UHGV virus genome: UHGV-0240820
DNA from: a virus
DNA length: 24,873 nt
Direction: 5' to 3' (one strand)
Made by a program: the position numbers and the translations under genes. The notes below the pieces were generated by a model. It was not told the origin of the DNA. It did not search any database and saw nothing but the letters and a program-made list of their open reading frames with translations. This document shows, piece by piece, positions 2-24,786 of this stretch (position 1 is the stretch's first letter; each line of letters opens with the position of its first letter).

Positions 2-157
2 CCAAGCATCCCCAACACTCAGGTCGGCGTATATGGCGACTGGTTTAATGATGGCAAGCCCACTTGGGATGACGGTGGTGGCGAAGACCTGTATCTCAAG
101 GAGGTAACCCACTGGATGCCGCTGCCAGAACCGCCGCAGGAGGTTAACCGTGGCTAA
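2..157 (+). CDS. hypothetical protein, 3' end only (5' part lies upstream of the window)
   Basis: Frame 2 is open for 51 codons from the window edge to TAA at 155-157; the end overlaps the GTG start of the next gene by 8 nt, suggesting coupling. No recognisable motif. Confidence 0.3.
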   Translation, partial: PSIPNTQVGVYGDWFNDGKPTWDDGGGEDLYLKEVTHWMPLPEPPQEVNRG

Positions 158-431
158 CCTGCAACTTGCCGTTAAAGGTGAATACTTCGATGCCATGATT
201 CGCGGAGAGAAAACGGAAGAGTATCGCCTGTGTAATGACTACTGGAATAAGCGAATTATGTTCCGCGAGTATGACCGCCTGATTATCACAAAGGGATATC
301 CGAAGCGCGACGATTCCAGCCGCAGAATTGACGTCCCGTATGACGGATATGAAATCAAGACAATCACACATCCGCACTTCGGCGATAAGCCGGCAAAGGT
401 GTTCGCGATAAAGGTGAATATTGATGGCTAA
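150..431 (+). CDS. ASCH-domain-like small protein (93 aa)
   Basis: GTG start at 150 preceded by AGGAGG (138-143). Contains a G-x-K-x-x-E-x-R motif (RGEKTEEYR) characteristic of ASCH/PUA-like domains. Domain call is from memory of the motif. Confidence 0.5.
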   Translation: MANLQLAVKGEYFDAMIRGEKTEEYRLCNDYWNKRIMFREYDRLIITKGYPKRDDSSRRIDVPYDGYEIKTITHPHFGDKPAKVFAIKVNIDG

Positions 432-726
432 ATCAGCAGCAGAGCGCAAAGCCGCTCAGAGAGCCAGACAAGCTGCATCTGGTGTGCGTAAGCTGGAAAT
501 TGTGCTTGATGCTCAGGAAATTGAAATGCTGGAGCGTAACTGTGCCACGCGTCGCCCCGGGCGTGCGCCTTACGAATTTGGTGAGTATATAGCGTTACTG
601 ATCCGCCAGGATGATGCACGCGTGCACGGGCGTATAAAATCGATCAGCAGAAACGTTGCGGTAAGTGCGGCGAGAGAGTTCCCGTTAATTCATGCCCGTG
701 TAATGGTGACTCGGAATGCTGGGTGA
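424..726 (+). CDS. hypothetical small protein; 3' part probably frameshifted (see findings)
   Basis: ATG at 424 with AAGGTGA (411-417) at 6 nt spacing. N-terminal 70 aa look protein-like; the C-terminal 30 aa in this frame do not, while the -1 frame encodes a Cys-rich ribbon-like tail ending at TGA 759-761. Confidence 0.4.
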   Translation: MAKSAAERKAAQRARQAASGVRKLEIVLDAQEIEMLERNCATRRPGRAPYEFGEYIALLIRQDDARVHGRIKSISRNVAVSAAREFPLIHARVMVTRNAG

Positions 727-756
727 CTAAAGGCTGGCATGAAACGAAATTAATAG

Positions 757-770
757 CGTGACATGTCACG
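757..770. repeat. 14-bp perfect palindrome CGTGACATGTCACG
   Basis: Read directly from sequence; the 12-bp core GTGACATGTCAC recurs at 3023-3034. Confidence 0.6.
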
Positions 771-810
771 AGTAGATTATGCATGATGAATTTGATGGGT
801 TTTGAATACT

Positions 811-837
811 GCCGCCAACTATGGCGGCTTTATTTTG
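811..837 (+). terminator. intrinsic terminator-like hairpin upstream of the terminase genes
   Basis: GCCGCCA (811-817), loop ACTA, TGGCGGC (822-828), followed by TTTATTTTG. Confidence 0.55.
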
Positions 838-879: not shown

Positions 880-1476
880 ATGATGCCTGCTGAACCTAAA
901 ACCTATAAACGCAAATCAACGCAATTTAAGCCACTAACAGCAATGCAGGAGGCTTATTGCCAGTCATACATCAAAACGCCTGAAAACCAGACTCAGGCAG
1001 CGATTAACGCAGGATTCTCCCCAAATACAGCGGCAGTTAAAGCCAGTCTCATGATGCGCGATGAACGCATTCAAAAACGGATTGCCGAGCTGATGGAAGA
1101 GCGCAACAAACGAATGCGCGTCAGTGCTGATTACGTTCTCATGCGCCTGGTGGAGATCGACCAGATGGACGTGATCGACATCCTCAACGACGATGGGAGC
1201 CTTAAGCCAATCCGCGAGTGGCCGAAAATCTGGCGCACTACGCTTAGTGGCTTTGATCTGTCATCGACCATCATGAACATGAACGAGGATTCGATAGAGA
1301 CAATCCTCAAAAAAATTAAATGGCCTGACAAGGTGAAGAACCTCGAACTGATTGGTAAGCACGTCGACGTCAACGCATTCAAAGAACGCCTGGATGTTAA
1401 TGTGAATGTGACAATTGCTGATCGCATAGCGGCAGCCAGGAAGAGACTGAAAGAACGTCAGGATGGCAATCAGTGA
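880..1476 (+). CDS. terminase small subunit
   Basis: Position immediately upstream of, and overlapping (GTGA), the large subunit. Sequence resembles small-terminase families (from memory). Start placed at ATG 880 (or 883, GGTGG at 873-877); the ORF-track start at 802 is rejected because it spans the terminator and the direct repeat. Confidence 0.7.
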   Translation: MMPAEPKTYKRKSTQFKPLTAMQEAYCQSYIKTPENQTQAAINAGFSPNTAAVKASLMMRDERIQKRIAELMEERNKRMRVSADYVLMRLVEIDQMDVIDILNDDGSLKPIREWPKIWRTTLSGFDLSSTIMNMNEDSIETILKKIKWPDKVKNLELIGKHVDVNAFKERLDVNVNVTIADRIAAARKRLKERQDGNQ

Positions 1477-2948: not shown

Positions 2949-2998
2949 TCCGCTGGTGGGGATAATGTCGTTGATATCCTCTGATGAGGATAAAACAA

Positions 2999-3025
2999 AG
3001 CCAGCTCATCGGCTGGCTGTTTGTG
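2999..3025 (+). terminator. weak terminator-like hairpin after the terminase large subunit
   Basis: AGCCAGC (2999-3005), loop TCATCG, GCTGGCT (3012-3018), then GTTTGTG. The T tract is poor. Confidence 0.35.
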
Positions 3026-3034
3026 ACATGTCAC
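3023..3034. repeat. palindrome GTGACATGTCAC (second copy)
   Basis: Exact 12-bp match to the core of the 757-770 palindrome. Confidence 0.6.
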
Positions 3035-3038
3035 GGCG

Positions 3039-3461
3039 TTAGAAGGTTATTTTATCGAATGCGGCGTTGATTGCCTTGGCGTCCTGCTCAGCACCAACCA
3101 CATCAAGTAAAGATCTTTTACTAAGCACTTCAGCCAGGCATTGTAACTTCATGTTGTATAAGTTTTCGCGCATGTAATCATCATCACTTTTTTCTTTGGC
3201 GTATACAGCGCGAGAAATATCAAACACATTGCCTTTTTCCATTTCAGTTTTCTGCGCTGAAATCCAGTCATGGCAAGTAACTCCTATTCCATGGTCATCG
3301 CTAAGCGTTAACCCGGCAAGTCGCTCACCTGGAATTGCTTCACAAAGCATTTCATTTCCTGCAAAAACACCATAAAAAATTGAATCATCACCCTGAACAA
3401 TGCGTACATATTTGCACGGCCATTCATTTAGATATTTAGCTAGCATGTCGGCTGTTTTCAT
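3039..3461 (-). CDS. hypothetical protein (140 aa), reverse-oriented moron
   Basis: Clean ORF with AAGGTGA 4 nt upstream of the ATG on the minus strand. Convergent with the terminase genes. No recognisable motif. Confidence 0.55.
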   Translation of the reverse strand: MKTADMLAKYLNEWPCKYVRIVQGDDSIFYGVFAGNEMLCEAIPGERLAGLTLSDDHGIGVTCHDWISAQKTEMEKGNVFDISRAVYAKEKSDDDYMRENLYNMKLQCLAEVLSKRSLLDVVGAEQDAKAINAAFDKITF

Positions 3462-3471
3462 GATCTCACCT

Positions 3472-3496
3472 TAAAAAAATGCCCGGCGAACCGGGC
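3472..3496 (-). terminator. intrinsic terminator (minus strand)
   Basis: On the minus strand: GCCCGG, loop TTCG, CCGGGC, followed by a T7 run (plus-strand A-run 3473-3479). Confidence 0.7.
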
Positions 3497-3659
3497 GAAC
3501 TGGAAGCAATGAGTTATGCCTTCCGTGGCTGTACTGGTTTACAGCATGAAGCCATCGCAATGGCGCCCTGCTGTAAAAAGGGCGGTGATAGTCCTTCAAG
3601 GGAAACCATCACCGCCAAGCCCCTGGAACTTCTGGCATCACGGTCCTTAGGCGTGATTC

Positions 3660-3736
3660 TGGCGTGGCATGCAGGATTCGAACCTGCGACCAACCGCTTA
3701 GAAGGCGGTTGCTCTGTCCAACTGAGCTAATGCCAC
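3660..3736 (-). tRNA. tRNA-Arg (anticodon UCU)
   Basis: Minus-strand 77-nt cloverleaf: acceptor GTGGCAT/ATGCCAC, D stem GCTC/GAGC, anticodon stem ACCGC/GCGGT with loop CTTCTAA, T arm GCAGG-TTCGAAT-CCTGC, discriminator G, encoded CCA. Differs from host argU at several positions (from memory), so it is phage-encoded. Confidence 0.85.
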
Positions 3737-4058
3737 AACGCTGAGAGCACTTAGCCTGTTAAGGCGCCACACTTTGTCGCGGCTCCATAAATGCTCTCAT
3801 CGTTGTACCCTCGTCTCTTCCGAGGCGTCACACCGAATCGCCGGGATGGTGAATCCCCGTGCGCGGAATAAAACCGCTCGACTTGCACATTCCGGCTACC
3901 TGGTTCGTTTGCCACAGCCAGGGAGGGTGCCCCTTAAACGCATCCAGACCGCTATCGGCGCATGTGCCATACGCCGTACTGCTCAAAATAAAAGCTCACT
4001 CCACCTGTTCAATTTAACGACAAGCCAGTCAGGTTAGTAACCGGAATGAACTCTTTGG

Positions 4059-4073
4059 TTACCTGAAAGGTAA
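4059..4073. promoter_or_regulatory. dyad TTACCTGAAAGGTAA (operator-like)
   Basis: One of six TTACC-N5-GGTAA sites; intergenic. Confidence 0.45.
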
Positions 4074-4163
4074 TAATTCGCGCATTAAATGTCAACTGTC
4101 TACGATAAATAAATCATATGTGGTTAAATTGGTAATAATTTAATTGCGTACGGAGTCATTGAT

Positions 4164-4370
4164 ATGTGCATGGGTAGCTCACCATCAGTGCCTGCAACAC
4201 CAGAAGTTCAGGCAGCACCACAGGAGCAGGATGCCGCCGTTGTTGATGCCCGCGACGAAGAAACTCGTCGCCGTCGCGCTGCTGCTGGTCGTAGTTCTAC
4301 GCTGCTTACCGGTTCTCAGGGCGACACATCAACTGCTAATACCAGCGGTAAAACGCTGCTTGGTCAGTAA
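4164..4370 (+). CDS. hypothetical small protein (68 aa)
   Basis: ATG preceded by CGGAGTCATTGA, a 12-nt string identical to the portal translation-initiation region at 4372-4383. Low-complexity Ala/Arg-rich product, so coding status is uncertain. Confidence 0.35.
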   Translation: MCMGSSPSVPATPEVQAAPQEQDAAVVDARDEETRRRRAAAGRSSTLLTGSQGDTSTANTSGKTLLGQ

Positions 4371-4384
4371 CCGGAGTCATTGAA

Positions 4385-6064: not shown

Positions 6065-6357
6065 CAGATTACGAAGACGATCAACTGAAAGAAGAAAACG
6101 CCCGTAAGCAACGTGACATGGCACAGCGTGAAATTGATGACATTTGCTTTGTCATGAGCAGTGAACAGGGGCGTCGCGTTGTCTGGTCGGTGCTGGAGAA
6201 AGGCCGTGTGTTTTCCGCTATCTCACCGATGGACGCTATGGCAATGGCATTTAATGAGGGGCAACGCAATCTGGCGCTGGAACTGTTTCAGCGCGTTATG
6301 GCGCATTGCCCTGAACAGTATTTGAAGATGGCCAAAGAGGCCAGTGAACAGGAGTGA
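6061..6357 (+). CDS. hypothetical protein (98 aa) between portal and scaffold
   Basis: ATGA overlap with the portal stop; acidic, helical-looking. Confidence 0.55.
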   Translation: MTDYEDDQLKEENARKQRDMAQREIDDICFVMSSEQGRRVVWSVLEKGRVFSAISPMDAMAMAFNEGQRNLALELFQRVMAHCPEQYLKMAKEASEQE

Positions 6358-20315: not shown

Positions 20316-20828
20316 CTATGCAGGCTTTTTGGATTTGTACGAATAATCCCACGGATAAACATTTCTACTAAGTGGAGCTGTATTCGTTCGTTCATGAAAT
20401 AATTTTGTGAAATTCAATACGGAATCCATCCAAACTTTTGCGTTAGCTTTGGTGTGTGCGGGCGGGTCCCAATAAGCTAGTAAGGCTGCATCTCTTATTT
20501 CATTGACTGCATATATGAGATATGCGTTACTGGTTGGTTTTGGCCTGTAATTTCCTTGTTCATCAATCAATCCATATGACCACTCATCCCAACACTGTTC
20601 AGTACATGAGTATGAATATGATGCATATTCACCAATATTGACATGAACCTTTCTGAGATGGAAGCCTAATACTTCGTCTGGTCTTTCAAAAAGAGTATCT
20701 TTTCCCAGATCAGGATGATGACCATGACGCCAGTGTTGTTTAAAAGCATCTTTTAGCGAAATCAGAAAGTCATCAGTTTTAAACTCACCAGTAGGTATAA
20801 CCTTCCCGCTATACTCACTCAAAAACAT
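20316..20828 (-). CDS. hypothetical protein (170 aa); candidate toxin/effector of a two-gene module
   Basis: Strong RBS (AGAGGA at 5 nt spacing). His cluster (HWRHGHH) and a Cys/Trp-rich segment (YSCTEQCWDEW). Start overlaps the upstream gene's 3' end by 14 nt. AT-rich. Confidence 0.55.
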   Translation of the reverse strand: MFLSEYSGKVIPTGEFKTDDFLISLKDAFKQHWRHGHHPDLGKDTLFERPDEVLGFHLRKVHVNIGEYASYSYSCTEQCWDEWSYGLIDEQGNYRPKPTSNAYLIYAVNEIRDAALLAYWDPPAHTKANAKVWMDSVLNFTKLFHERTNTAPLSRNVYPWDYSYKSKKPA

Positions 20829-21270: not shown

Positions 21271-21927
21271 TCAGAAGAACCCTGCTTTGTCGTTGATGTA
21301 CTCCGCGTGCGTCTGGATATCACGCAGGCATTTGCTCACACCGACGATGTAGCAGAACATGGTGGTCAGTTCCGCCGCCGCGCCCGATACGTCGTGCCCG
21401 TCTTCCTGTAACTGGTTCAGCAGATTCATCAGCAGTGAGTTCTCCGTCAGGCCGAGAACACCAGACGGAGAATGAATCAGGCTGCGGTAGCCGGGCTTCA
21501 GCGGGGCACTGTATTCTTTTTTGTCTTCCAGCTTGATCGCCTCCATAATGGCGGGCATGAAGCCTGACAAGACCTTCTCCACTTTTGTTTCTTGTTGTCT
21601 TAAACGTTTCTCGCATTCAATGAAGTAGCGTCGCACCTGGCGACCTTTTTCGTTACGCTCGACCATCGCCAGCTCTTTGGCTGTATCAAGGGTGAGGTGG
21701 TACTCTTTGCGGTTGTGGCCGCCTCTACCAGATGTTTGCTTTCCCAAATTGGAAAGCAAAATATAGTCTTGATTTTCAATGAATTCGTATTCTGATATGC
21801 GATTTGTAATCCATGCTGCAAACACCTTTTTAACACCTAAAAAAGCGTGCAGATCGCGGGCATTACAAAGTAGGGCTGTTTCGTTAGATATAGTGCCGTT
21901 GAATACGGGGATGAGTTGAGCGTTCAT
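21271..21927 (-). CDS. phage antirepressor (AntA/Bro-N-type N-terminal domain plus C-terminal domain)
   Basis: N-terminal sequence ([12 protein letters not shown]...[32 protein letters not shown]) matches the conserved AntA-type antirepressor domain as I recall it. GGAG RBS. C-terminal 80 aa are paralogous to ORF 23077-23334. Confidence 0.75.
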
Positions 21928-23529: not shown

Positions 23530-24786
23530 ATGACGGTCTCAACCGAAGTTGACCACAACGAATACACCGGTAACGGCGTTACGACATCGTTTCCGTATAC
23601 TTTTCGAATTTTCAGAAAATCAGACCTGGTTGTTCAGGTGTCTGATCTGAACGGAAACGTAACAGAATTGGTCCTGGATACCGGTTATACGGTAACTGGG
23701 GCGGGCACTTATAGTGGCGGTTCTGTGGTTCTTCCGTCTCCGCTTGCTACTGGATGGCGAATTACGATAGATCGTGTGCTTGATGTAGTGCAGGACACAG
23801 ACCTTCGCAATCAGGGAAAATTTTTCCCCGAAGTGCATGAAGATGCCTTTGACTACCTGACGATGCTGATCCAGCAATGTTTTGGGTGGTTCAGACGTGC
23901 ATTGATGAAACCATCTTTGCTTGCAAAATATTACGATGCAAAGCAAAACAAAATTTCTAACCTTGCAGATCCATCATTTGAGCAGGACGCTGTAAATAAT
24001 CGCTCAATGCGTAATTATGTCGATGCTGCAATCGCCGGAGTTGTTGGTGGTTTTGGTTGGTTTATTCAGTATGGTTCTGGGGCTGTGTACCGAACGTTCC
24101 AGGATAAAATGCGTGATGCTATTAGCCCCAAAGATTTTGGAGCTGTTGGTGATGGTATAAATGACGATTCCACTGCAATAAGCGCGTGCCTTGAAGCCTC
24201 ATCTCCAGGTTATAAAATTGACGGATTAGGGCTTACTTTTAAAGTATCAACTCTTCCGGATGTCAGTCGATTTAAAAATGCTCGTTTTTTATTTGAGAGA
24301 ATACCGGGCCAGCCTCTTTTTTATGCTTCTGAAGATTTTATCCAGGGAGAGTTATTTAAAATTACAGATACACCGTGGTACAACGCCTGGACGCAGGATA
24401 AAACGTTTGTATATGACAATGTCATCTATGCGCCTTTTATGGCTGGAGACCGCCATGGTGTAAATAACCTCCATGTTGCATGGGTTCGCTCAGGAGATGA
24501 CGGGAAGACCTGGACAACGCCGGAATGGCTTACAGATTTACATGAAAACTATCCCACAGTTAACTATCACTGCATGAGTATGGGGGTTGTCAGAAATCGC
24601 CTTTTTGCTGTAATTGAGACGCGGACCGTGAGAGGAAATAAACTGCAGGTTGCAGAGTTGTGGGATCGCCCAATGAGTCGCAGCCTTCGCGTTTATGGTG
24701 GTATAACGAAAGCAGCAAATCAGCAAGTCGCTTATATTCGCATTACTGATCACGGATTGAACCGCCCCGGGAATCCTGGAGACTAA
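23530..24786 (+). CDS. tail spike/fiber protein, 3'-disrupted by IS insertion
   Basis: GGAG RBS. N-terminal ~140 aa resemble the T7 gp17 particle-binding domain (from memory). DFGAVGDGINDD motif and an Asp-box SGDDGKTW (24491-24514). From ~24758 the reading frame runs into IS terminal sequence; the last ~9 codons and the stop are IS-derived. Confidence 0.7.
   Translation: MTVSTEVDHNEYTGNGVTTSFPYTFRIFRKSDLVVQVSDLNGNVTELVLDTGYTVTGAGTYSGGSVVLPSPLATGWRITIDRVLDVVQDTDLRNQGKFFPEVHEDAFDYLTMLIQQCFGWFRRALMKPSLLAKYYDAKQNKISNLADPSFEQDAVNNRSMRNYVDAAIAGVVGGFGWFIQYGSGAVYRTFQDKMRDAISPKDFGAVGDGINDDSTAISACLEASSPGYKIDGLGLTFKVSTLPDVSRFKNARFLFERIPGQPLFYASEDFIQGELFKITDTPWYNAWTQDKTFVYDNVIYAPFMAGDRHGVNNLHVAWVRSGDDGKTWTTPEWLTDLHENYPTVNYHCMSMGVVRNRLFAVIETRTVRGNKLQVAELWDRPMSRSLRVYGGITKAANQQVAYIRITDHGLNRPGNPGD

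What the first reader, a model, noticed from the sequence alone, without database searches (positions are those of the whole stretch)
424..761. Apparent -1 frameshift joining a small ORF to a Cys-rich ribbon-like tail
The frame opened at ATG 424 looks protein-like for about 70 codons and then degenerates. The -1 frame from about 639 encodes IDQQKRCGKCGERVPVNSCPCNGDSECWVTKGWHETKLIA, ending at TGA 759-761. The switch coincides with the A4 run at 636-639 (ATA AAA TCG). This could be a sequencing indel, an inactivating mutation, or slippage on A-AAA.
Basis: seen in the sequence. Interest (0 to 1): 0.5.

Follow-up and report, generated by a model that had tools for sequence, protein, structure and literature searches.

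The report
One-base deletion in phage regulator gene
The apparent frameshift is a real, inherited one-base deletion that cuts the zinc-binding tail off a small, conserved phage DNA-binding protein; it is an ordinary mutation already flagged as "frameshifted" in public genomes, not programmed ribosomal slippage.

Summary
It lies in the next A run. The window has AAA at 651-653, where intact relatives (phiV10, PAS61, TL-2011b and over 100 other contigs) have AAAA.

With the fourth A, the gene is one 339-nt, 112-aa ORF. This is the epsilon15 gp49 / phiV10 gp55 / N15 gp46 family (PHROG 536, E 4e-54, full length). A confident AlphaFold model shows an N-terminal ribbon-helix-helix fold followed by a Cys-rich zinc module.

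The window encodes residues 1-76, then 24 out-of-frame residues, then a stop at 724-726.

The deletion is not a one-off read error. The exact 100-aa product is on 125 contigs from independent samples. The same deletion on a second allele background is on at least 1000 contigs and in 25 complete E. coli genomes. RefSeq marks one of these "frameshifted". It is also in the plaque-forming phage EC.W1-9.

Flanking SNPs indicate the deletion arose twice.

I found no slippery heptamer and no stimulatory RNA structure. Homologs do not share a two-frame layout.

Verdict: an ordinary, tolerated frameshift allele of low interest. One side observation is a conserved palindrome, GTGACATGTCAC, at the gene's stop codon.

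The parts
424..726 (+). Present-day ORF of 100 aa. Codons 1-76 (424-651) are native protein. Codons 77-100 (652-723) are out-of-frame filler (NVAVSAAREFPLIHARVMVTRNAG). The stop is TGA 724-726.
   Evidence: The exact product, P0001, is on 125 contigs.
651..653 (+). A3 run, the site of the 1-nt deletion. Intact relatives have AAAA here (AGA AAA CGT = R76 K77 R78).
   Evidence: DNA alignments. All 100 intact (339-nt) alleles fetched by then carry the extra base; all nine 338-nt loci fetched by then (L004, L128-L135) lack it, as do the four EC.W1-9-type loci fetched later (L143-L146).
651..761 (+). Ancestral C-terminal tail, now in the -1 frame: K77 R78 C79-G-K-C82 ... C91-P-C93 ... C99 ... LIA, then TGA 759-761. 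It encodes the Cys-rich zinc module and has no start codon of its own.
   Evidence: C79, C82 invariant, C99 nearly so, across the family.
636..639 (+). It is an unchanged ATA-AAA (Ile-Lys) codon pair present in both intact and frameshifted alleles. It is not the break point.
490..648 (+). Ribbon-helix-helix core of the protein (about residues 23-75: strand, helix 30-42, long helix 52-75). It is retained intact in the truncated product.
758..769 (.). Perfect 12-bp palindrome GTGACATGTCAC overlapping the ancestral stop codon. Other copies lie at 3023-3034 and, with 1 mismatch, at 6113-6124.
   Evidence: Conserved after the homologous gene in epsilon15, ZF40 and EC.W1-9. Marks a mosaic junction.
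811..836 (+). Intrinsic terminator (GC-rich hairpin plus T tract) between this gene and the small terminase gene.
   Evidence: Annotated as a terminator in the epsilon15 and phiV10 records.
150..431 (+). Upstream ASCH-domain gene. Its stop, TAA 429-431, overlaps the start of the target gene by 8 nt.
883..1476 (+). Small terminase subunit (Terminase_2), the first gene of the packaging and structural block.
   Evidence: E 7e-30.

Best explanation
A single A was lost from a four-A run (now AAA at 651-653) inside a conserved 112-aa gene of epsilon15/phiV10-like (Uetakevirus) phages.

The intact protein has two parts. The N-terminal part is a ribbon-helix-helix DNA-binding domain (residues about 23-75). 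The C-terminal part is a four-cysteine zinc module (C79, C82, a Cys at 91-93, and C99).

The deletion shifts the frame right after the long helix. The window therefore encodes the ribbon-helix-helix part, then 24 meaningless residues, and stops 35 nt before the ancestral stop codon. The zinc module is no longer translated.

Shown here:
- The deletion is a heritable allele, not an error of this one assembly.
- It has arisen at the same run on two allele backgrounds.
- One carrier is a phage that forms plaques normally.

Inferred: the zinc module, and probably the whole gene, is dispensable for lytic growth. It would then be an accessory regulator in the early 'nin/exo-xis-like' gene block. The frameshift would be a tolerated loss or change of function produced by ordinary replication slippage in a short homopolymer. 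No recoding is involved.
For: - Relatives carry one more A and one 339-nt ORF.
- All 100 intact alleles fetched by then have the extra base; all 9 alleles of 338 nt fetched by then lack it, as do the four EC.W1-9-type loci fetched later (L143-L146).
- The repaired protein matches PHROG 536 end to end (E 4e-54).
- Distant homologs keep the CxxC...C...C tail in frame.
- The exact 100-aa product is on 125 contigs in 265 blocks of the collection, from unrelated gut metagenomes and an NCBI isolate.
- These contigs differ by up to about 0.7% in the terminase genes and carry different upstream genes.
- The same deletion on the EC.W1-9 background: product on at least 1000 contigs; 25 RefSeq complete-genome records match the 81-nt A3 segment at 99% or more (the 12 listed are at 100%); one is annotated 'frameshifted' pseudogene by PGAP.
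- EC.W1-9 was sequenced on Illumina MiSeq, gives clear plaques, and the paper gives burst sizes of about 85-110 for its two phages (bioRxiv 10.1101/2024.06.28.601134).
- Each A3 haplotype has an A4 twin at the flanking SNPs 621, 626, 655 and 683, which implies two origins.
Against: - The deletion removes the most conserved motif of the family, yet it persists at appreciable frequency, about 5% of the complete E. coli genomes that carry the gene. A plain null allele of a useful gene would be expected to be rarer.
- The -1 tail is still an open frame with only conservative changes (Q98E, V112A; R78L in EC.W1-9). The alleles are too young for that to discriminate between models.
- No read-level data were available for this particular window.
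- The function of the protein has never been tested, as far as the searched literature shows.
Confidence: 0.86

Rival explanations
1. Sequencing or assembly error: a homopolymer miscall dropped one A in this record only.
For: The change is a 1-nt length difference in a homopolymer, the commonest kind of assembly error. Window-type A3 was found in only 1 IMG/VR contig, against at least 120 with A4. It was found in none of the RefSeq complete genomes.
Against: - The exact product is on 125 contigs from many studies and sequencing centres.
- Contig L132 is identical to the window over 3.7 kb; others share the allele but differ elsewhere.
- A run of 3-4 A is too short for systematic Illumina error.
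- The same deletion occurs in 25 finished genomes and in a MiSeq-sequenced phage.
Confidence: 0.02
2. Recoding. Ribosomes slip -1 at A_AAA_U (636-640), or near 650-654, and restore a 112-aa protein with the zinc tail, so the A3 allele remains functional. This could be programmed or merely leaky.
For: - tRNA-Lys can re-pair on A_AAA, and a slip anywhere between 615 and about 656 would give a full-length, same-size product.
- The tail frame is still open.
- A3 phages are viable.
Against: - There is no X XXY YYZ heptamer.
- No Shine-Dalgarno-like stimulator lies at the right distance (sequence).
- The downstream RNA folds no better than shuffles (z = -0.19).
- The A_AAA_U site is equally present in all intact alleles, where slipping would be harmful.
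- The two-frame state is derived, rare and young.
Confidence: 0.04
3. Selected truncation or contingency switch. Loss of the zinc module is advantageous in some hosts, or yields a useful ribbon-helix-helix-only regulator. The A run would then act as a recurrent switch between the two forms.
For: - The same deletion is found on two backgrounds.
- One form is very common and is carried by a fit phage.
- The break falls exactly at the domain boundary and leaves the ribbon-helix-helix fold whole.
- Other frameshifted versions near residues 77-82 exist in the family.
Against: - An A4 run mutates far too slowly for classical phase variation.
- High counts can be explained by clonal spread of host lineages such as the ST648 strain.
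- Recurrent loss at the only slippery spot of a dispensable gene is what neutrality predicts.
- Frameshifted variants elsewhere in the gene are scattered.
Confidence: 0.08

Closest known systems
phiV10 gp55 (YP_512310.1), epsilon15 gp49 (NP_848257.1), N15 gp46 (NP_046942.1); PHROG 536 'transcriptional regulator'
   Same: The gene is the same. It is 98% identical to phiV10 gp55 once the missing A is restored. It occupies the same position, as the last early-region gene before a terminator and the small terminase gene. The palindrome at the stop codon is the same in epsilon15 and continues across the start of the phiV10 record.
   Different: The window's copy lacks one A, so it ends at 100 aa without the Cys-rich module.
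EC.W1-9 WYA78226.1 (100 aa) and RefSeq pseudogene FH07_RS17500 ('frameshifted') in E. coli strain ST648
   Same: Identical A4-to-A3 deletion at the same run. The out-of-frame tail is the same apart from one residue, and the stop is the same.
   Different: The 5' half of the gene differs (about 75% identity), and CTT rather than CGT follows the run. Flanking SNPs indicate a separate origin.
Programmed -1 ribosomal frameshifts (dnaX, phage tail chaperone G/GT, IS element transposases)
   Same: Two overlapping frames whose fusion gives a sensible protein, with a lysine-codon A run nearby.
   Different: There is no heptamer and no stimulator. Homologs do not conserve the overlap; they are single-frame.
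Ribbon-helix-helix (CopG/Arc/MetJ) DNA-binding proteins
   Different: No Pfam ribbon-helix-helix model reaches its threshold. This family also carries an extra C-terminal zinc module.
DksA/TraR C4 zinc-finger proteins (F-plasmid TraR, E. coli YbiI)
   Same: A long helix is followed by C-x2-C-G-x2-(I/L)-P ... G ... C. The three best PDB profile hits are TraR (two entries) and YbiI (E about 0.06). hhalign probability against TraR is 75%.
   Different: The scores are below significance. The last CxxC pair is replaced by a single Cys, with another Cys in the loop. An N-terminal ribbon-helix-helix domain is present that TraR lacks. RNA polymerase binding is untested.

Membership tests
epsilon15 gp49 / N15 gp46 family (PHROG 536) | Full-length similarity to the family profile | tested here: met
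tblastn finds it in 153 phage records.
epsilon15 gp49 / N15 gp46 family (PHROG 536) | A single uninterrupted ORF of about 105-135 aa ending in the CxxC...C...C module | tested here: not met
   The window's ORF stops at 100 aa, and the Cys module lies in the -1 frame. It is a frameshifted member.
epsilon15 gp49 / N15 gp46 family (PHROG 536) | Position immediately upstream of a terminator and the small terminase gene (in Uetakevirus-like phages) | tested here: met
Programmed -1 ribosomal frameshift | Slippery heptamer X XXY YYZ at the frame junction | tested here: not met
   Frame-1 codons across 615-656 are GAT GCA CGC GTG CAC GGG CGT ATA AAA TCG ATC AGC AGA AAC. Only a tetramer, A_AAA, is present, and it lies 12-15 nt before the true junction.
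Programmed -1 ribosomal frameshift | Stimulatory RNA structure downstream of the slip site | tested here: not met
   The fold of 630-730 has MFE -26 kcal/mol against a shuffle mean of -25.4, z = -0.19.
Programmed -1 ribosomal frameshift | The two-frame arrangement is conserved among homologs | tested here: not met
   Homologs from E. coli to Vibrio are single-frame. A3 is a derived minority allele.
Programmed -1 ribosomal frameshift | The trans-frame protein is actually produced | not testable with these tools
   Needs proteomics or a reporter assay.
Sequencing or assembly artefact | The indel is confined to one record and absent from independent data | tested here: not met
   The exact product is on 125 contigs and several haplotypes. 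The same deletion is in finished genomes and in an isolated phage.
Ribbon-helix-helix DNA-binding proteins | A beta-strand/helix/helix fold that matches solved ribbon-helix-helix structures | tested here: met
Ribbon-helix-helix DNA-binding proteins | A sequence match to a curated ribbon-helix-helix model above threshold | tested here: not met
   Only sub-threshold hits in 1-2 of 56 members.
Ribbon-helix-helix DNA-binding proteins | Dimeric binding to an inverted-repeat operator | not testable with these tools
   A candidate site, GTGACATGTCAC, is conserved next to the gene. Binding is untested.
DksA/TraR C4 zinc finger | C-x2-C-x17-C-x2-C motif after a long helix, with a significant profile match | tested here: inconclusive
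   C79-x2-C82-x16-C99, but with no fourth Cys at +3; a Cys at 91-93 may substitute. PDB profile E about 0.06. hhalign probability 75%.

The most novel reading that the evidence does not exclude
The short A run at 651-653 is a recurrent switch point. It converts a two-domain phage regulator (ribbon-helix-helix plus TraR-like zinc finger) into a ribbon-helix-helix-only form that is kept by selection, or that is partly rescued by low-level -1 slippage at A_AAA_U. The conserved palindrome GTGACATGTCAC at the gene's stop, repeated inside the packaging and head operon, would be this protein's operator. The two alleles would then set different levels of late or packaging gene expression, or of host modulation.
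Probability: 0.07. Interest if true: 0.5.

Novelty: already known. Interest (0 to 1): 0.17.

Why it matters
For annotation, 424-761 should be treated as one frameshifted gene and not as a recoding site. The 100-aa 'hypothetical protein' entries in public databases are the same lesion.

Biologically, the allele is a natural knock-out of the zinc module of an uncharacterised but widespread phage protein family. One carrier, EC.W1-9, grows well, so the module is dispensable for lytic growth. This argues against the protein being the essential late-gene activator that its position suggests.

The conserved palindrome beside the gene offers a concrete handle for testing what the protein binds.

Tried and rejected
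- **Slip at 636-639.** Rejected by alignment; the missing base is at 651-653.
- **Programmed frameshift.** Heptamer and RNA-structure tests were negative.
- **First AlphaFold run.** With 32 close homologs it gave pLDDT 56 and was unusable. A 56-sequence diverse alignment gave pLDDT 89.
- **Foldseek searches.** Against the PDB there was nothing significant. Against BFVD the only hit was a 46-aa fragment of the same family, mis-named 'ubiquitin-binding zinc finger'. The afdb50 library was unavailable.
- **Profile libraries.** Pfam and NCBIfam gave no hit above threshold.
- **My own misreading, corrected.** I first took the repaired window protein to be the common allele. In fact the common one (over 1000 contigs) is the phiV10 type (Q98, V112). 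The repaired window sequence (E98, A112) is on a single contig.
- **An overstatement, corrected.** I first concluded that 0 of 497 complete genomes carry the deletion. That holds only for the window-type background; 25 carry it on the EC.W1-9 background.
- **Exact-pattern scans for window-type A3.** Genome contigs gave 0. Metagenome contigs gave 1, probably the IMG/VR contig again (identical length, 20,429 bp).
- **Selection test.** A dN/dS-type test on the dead tail is not feasible, because the A3 alleles are nearly invariant.
- **Literature.** Searches for a tested function of gp49 or gp46, and for the phiV10/epsilon15 genome ends, found nothing relevant.

Full report
**Context.** The window is the right-hand early region plus the packaging, head and tail genes of an epsilon15/phiV10-like (Uetakevirus) E. 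coli phage or prophage.
- The best full-length relatives are EC.W1-9, TL-2011b, phiv142-3 and phiV10, at about 97-98% identity.
- Gene order at the left end is: ASCH-domain gene 150-431, the gene in question from ATG 424, a terminator at 811-836, small terminase 883-1476 (Pfam Terminase_2, E 7e-30), and large terminase 1473-2948.

**The observation.**
- Frame 1 from ATG 424 gives 100 codons and stops at TGA 724-726.
- The two-frame picture is therefore real.

**Where the break is.**
- In PAS61, TL-2011b and phiV10 the same stretch is one annotated 339-nt ORF of 112 aa.
- The DNA alignment shows a single gap. The window has CAGCAG-AAACG where the others have CAGCAGAAAACG.
- The missing base therefore belongs to the run at 651-653, which is AGA AAC here and AGA AAA CGT (R76 K77 R78) in relatives.
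- The ancestral junction is ...GRIKSISRKRCGKCG..., not ...KIDQQKRCG....

**Is the Cys frame conserved?** Yes, strongly.
- The repaired protein matches PHROG 536 ('transcriptional regulator') over its whole length, E 4e-54.
- tblastn finds the family in 153 phage records. These include epsilon15 gp49, SPN1S, Pectobacterium ZF40 gp22, Yersinia Peduoviridae, phiKO2, N15 gp46, and Vibrio and Aeromonas phages, with alignments running through the tail.
- In an 8-sequence alignment and in a 56-sequence alignment of 50%-identity cluster representatives, C79 and C82 are invariant. P87, G95 and C99 are nearly so, and a further Cys always lies at about 91-93.
It is not met.

**Error or real allele?**
- The exact 100-aa product (P0001) is in the 15-billion-protein collection on 125 contigs, in 265 blocks. 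Sources include NCBI isolate protein GDA28394.1 and gut metagenomes from unrelated studies.
- Of the loci fetched, L132 equals the window over 3.7 kb.
- The other loci share the identical 338-nt gene but differ by 16-24 substitutions, and by an indel, in the terminase region. They also carry different upstream genes.
- This rules out a one-off miscall.
- In IMG/VR the window-type A3 string occurs once, against at least 120 (capped) for A4.
- No RefSeq complete E. coli genome has the window-type A3.

**The same deletion on a second background.**
- The closest complete phage, EC.W1-9, annotates a 303-nt, 100-aa CDS here. It has the same missing A. Its 5' half is about 75% identical to the window's, and CTT instead of CGT follows the run.
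- That product (P0294) is on at least 1000 contigs.
- 25 RefSeq complete-genome records match the 81-nt A3 segment at 99% or more; the 12 listed are at 100%. This compares with about 497 genomes carrying the gene.
- PGAP labels the copy in strain ST648 'hypothetical protein; frameshifted'.
- In IMG/VR this background shows 3 A3 contigs against 25 A4 contigs.
- EC.W1-9 was sequenced on Illumina MiSeq and gives clear 1-2 mm plaques. The paper gives a 15-min latent period and burst sizes of about 85-110 for its two phages (bioRxiv 10.1101/2024.06.28.601134).
- A phage with this lesion therefore grows well.

**One origin or two?** The haplotype table for window 600-761 across 145 loci shows:
- The EC.W1-9-type A3 allele is identical at every variable site to a common A4 haplotype (T621, G626, T655, C683; 21 loci).
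- The window-type A3 allele (C621, A626, G655, C683) is closest to a different A4 haplotype, from strain OkiPb01676. It differs from that haplotype only at G714 and C757.
- The distinguishing SNPs lie 25 nt upstream and 2 nt downstream of the run. Two independent deletions are more parsimonious than a conversion tract shorter than 29 nt.
- G714 and C757 are rare or absent among intact alleles (2 of 100 and 0 of 100). In the old frame they are non-synonymous (Q98E, V112A). This fits relaxed constraint, but the sample is too small to prove it.
- The repaired window protein itself occurs on only one contig.
- Variants within the A3 clusters are almost all singletons, so the alleles are young.

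**Recoding.**
- A -1 slip anywhere between 615 and about 656 would restore a 112-aa protein.
- However, the frame-1 codons there contain no X XXY YYZ heptamer. The only re-pairing opportunity is tRNA-Lys on A_AAA (636-639), and all intact alleles share it.
- RNA 630-730 folds no better than shuffled sequence (z = -0.19).
- The A runs are far too short for transcriptional slippage (established knowledge).
- The two-frame state is derived and in the minority. I put programmed or useful slippage at about 4%.

**What the protein is.**
- Pfam and NCBIfam give nothing above threshold.
- An AlphaFold model from a diverse 56-sequence alignment is confident, with pLDDT 89.1 and pTM 0.67. It has helices at 5-19, 30-42, 52-75 and 100-107.
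- A few family members give weak RHH_1, RHH_5 or RepB-RCR_reg Pfam hits.
- For the helix plus Cys module, the three best PDB profile hits are TraR (two entries) and YbiI, all DksA/TraR-type zinc fingers, at E about 0.06. hhalign against the TraR segment gives 75% probability. This is a lead, not a demonstration.
- The working model is a ribbon-helix-helix DNA-binding domain fused to a four-Cys zinc module. No experimental work on it turned up.
- The frameshift falls at the end of the long helix. The truncated product keeps the whole ribbon-helix-helix domain and loses the zinc module.

**Consequence.**
- EC.W1-9 is fit, so the zinc module is dispensable for lytic growth.
- This argues against the protein being an essential late-gene activator or antiterminator, despite its suggestive position just before a promoter-like site, a terminator and the terminase genes.
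- The simplest reading is an accessory gene, like its neighbours (ASCH, DUF551, Ea22-like). It is occasionally hit at its one slippery spot, and the lesion is then carried along by successful host or phage lineages.
- Other frameshifted or truncated versions scattered through the family fit that picture.

**Side observation.**
- The ancestral stop codon sits inside a perfect palindrome, GTGACATGTCAC (758-769).
- The same 12-mer recurs at 3023-3034, and with one mismatch at 6113-6124. All three copies lie between genes. The expected count is 0.07 per window, and 0 of 100 shuffles reached 3.
- The palindrome also follows the homologous gene in epsilon15, ZF40, EC.W1-9 and OkiPb01676. It is intact in 137 of 140 loci.
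- Two alternative downstream sequences begin right after it.
- The phiV10 record starts inside it.
- It may be the protein's operator, a packaging-related site or a recombination boundary. This is unresolved.

**Verdict.** The lesion is already annotated as a frameshift in RefSeq. Interest is low.

Noticed in passing
window 758-769, 3023-3034, 6113-6124; L136:1779, L137:1785, L143:934, L142:3148: The perfect palindrome GTGACATGTCAC overlaps the ancestral stop codon. It recurs in two other intergenic spots, after terL and after the portal gene (the latter with 1 mismatch); 0.07 copies are expected by chance. It is conserved directly after the homologous gene in epsilon15 and Pectobacterium ZF40. 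Two alternative downstream sequences start right after it, and the phiV10 GenBank record begins inside it. It could be an operator of the ribbon-helix-helix protein, a cos/pac-related site, or a mosaic junction.
   Followed up: partly
L143:600-902 (EC.W1-9); L172:1013-1350 (E. coli strain ST648): The same one-base deletion exists on a second allele background. It is found in a plaque-forming phage and in 25 complete E. coli genomes. Flanking SNPs indicate an independent origin.
   Followed up: yes
window 2949-4384: The slot between large terminase and portal is variable. It holds a minus-strand ORF 3039-3461 (140 aa, no Pfam hit) and a tRNA-Arg(TCT) at 3660-3736 (-). Relatives carry ORFs of different size here (110, 127, 140 or 201 aa).
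   Followed up: partly
window 23530-24786: The ORF carries the endosialidase N-terminal extension, beta-propeller and beta-barrel domains (E 1e-70). This is a K1-capsule (polysialic acid) tailspike on a Uetakevirus-like backbone. Only the start of each catalytic domain profile is matched.
   Followed up: no
window 20316-20828 (-), 21271-21927 (-): An AntA/AntB-type antirepressor (E 4e-26) lies next to an ORF with a weak, sub-threshold YafO-toxin similarity (E 1e-3).
   Followed up: no
L142:3169-3381 (E. coli OkiPb01676) versus window 771-800: About a third of related loci (43 of 137) share an alternative sequence starting immediately after the palindrome; in OkiPb01676 it carries an extra small ORF (213 nt) between this gene and the small terminase gene. 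The window has the short version.
   Followed up: partly
BFVD entry A0A8S5P4C6; proteins P0184, P0156, P0182: Fragments consisting only of the Cys-rich tail are deposited as separate small proteins. One is named 'ubiquitin-binding zinc finger protein'. They are probably truncated or broken copies of the same gene.
   Followed up: partly
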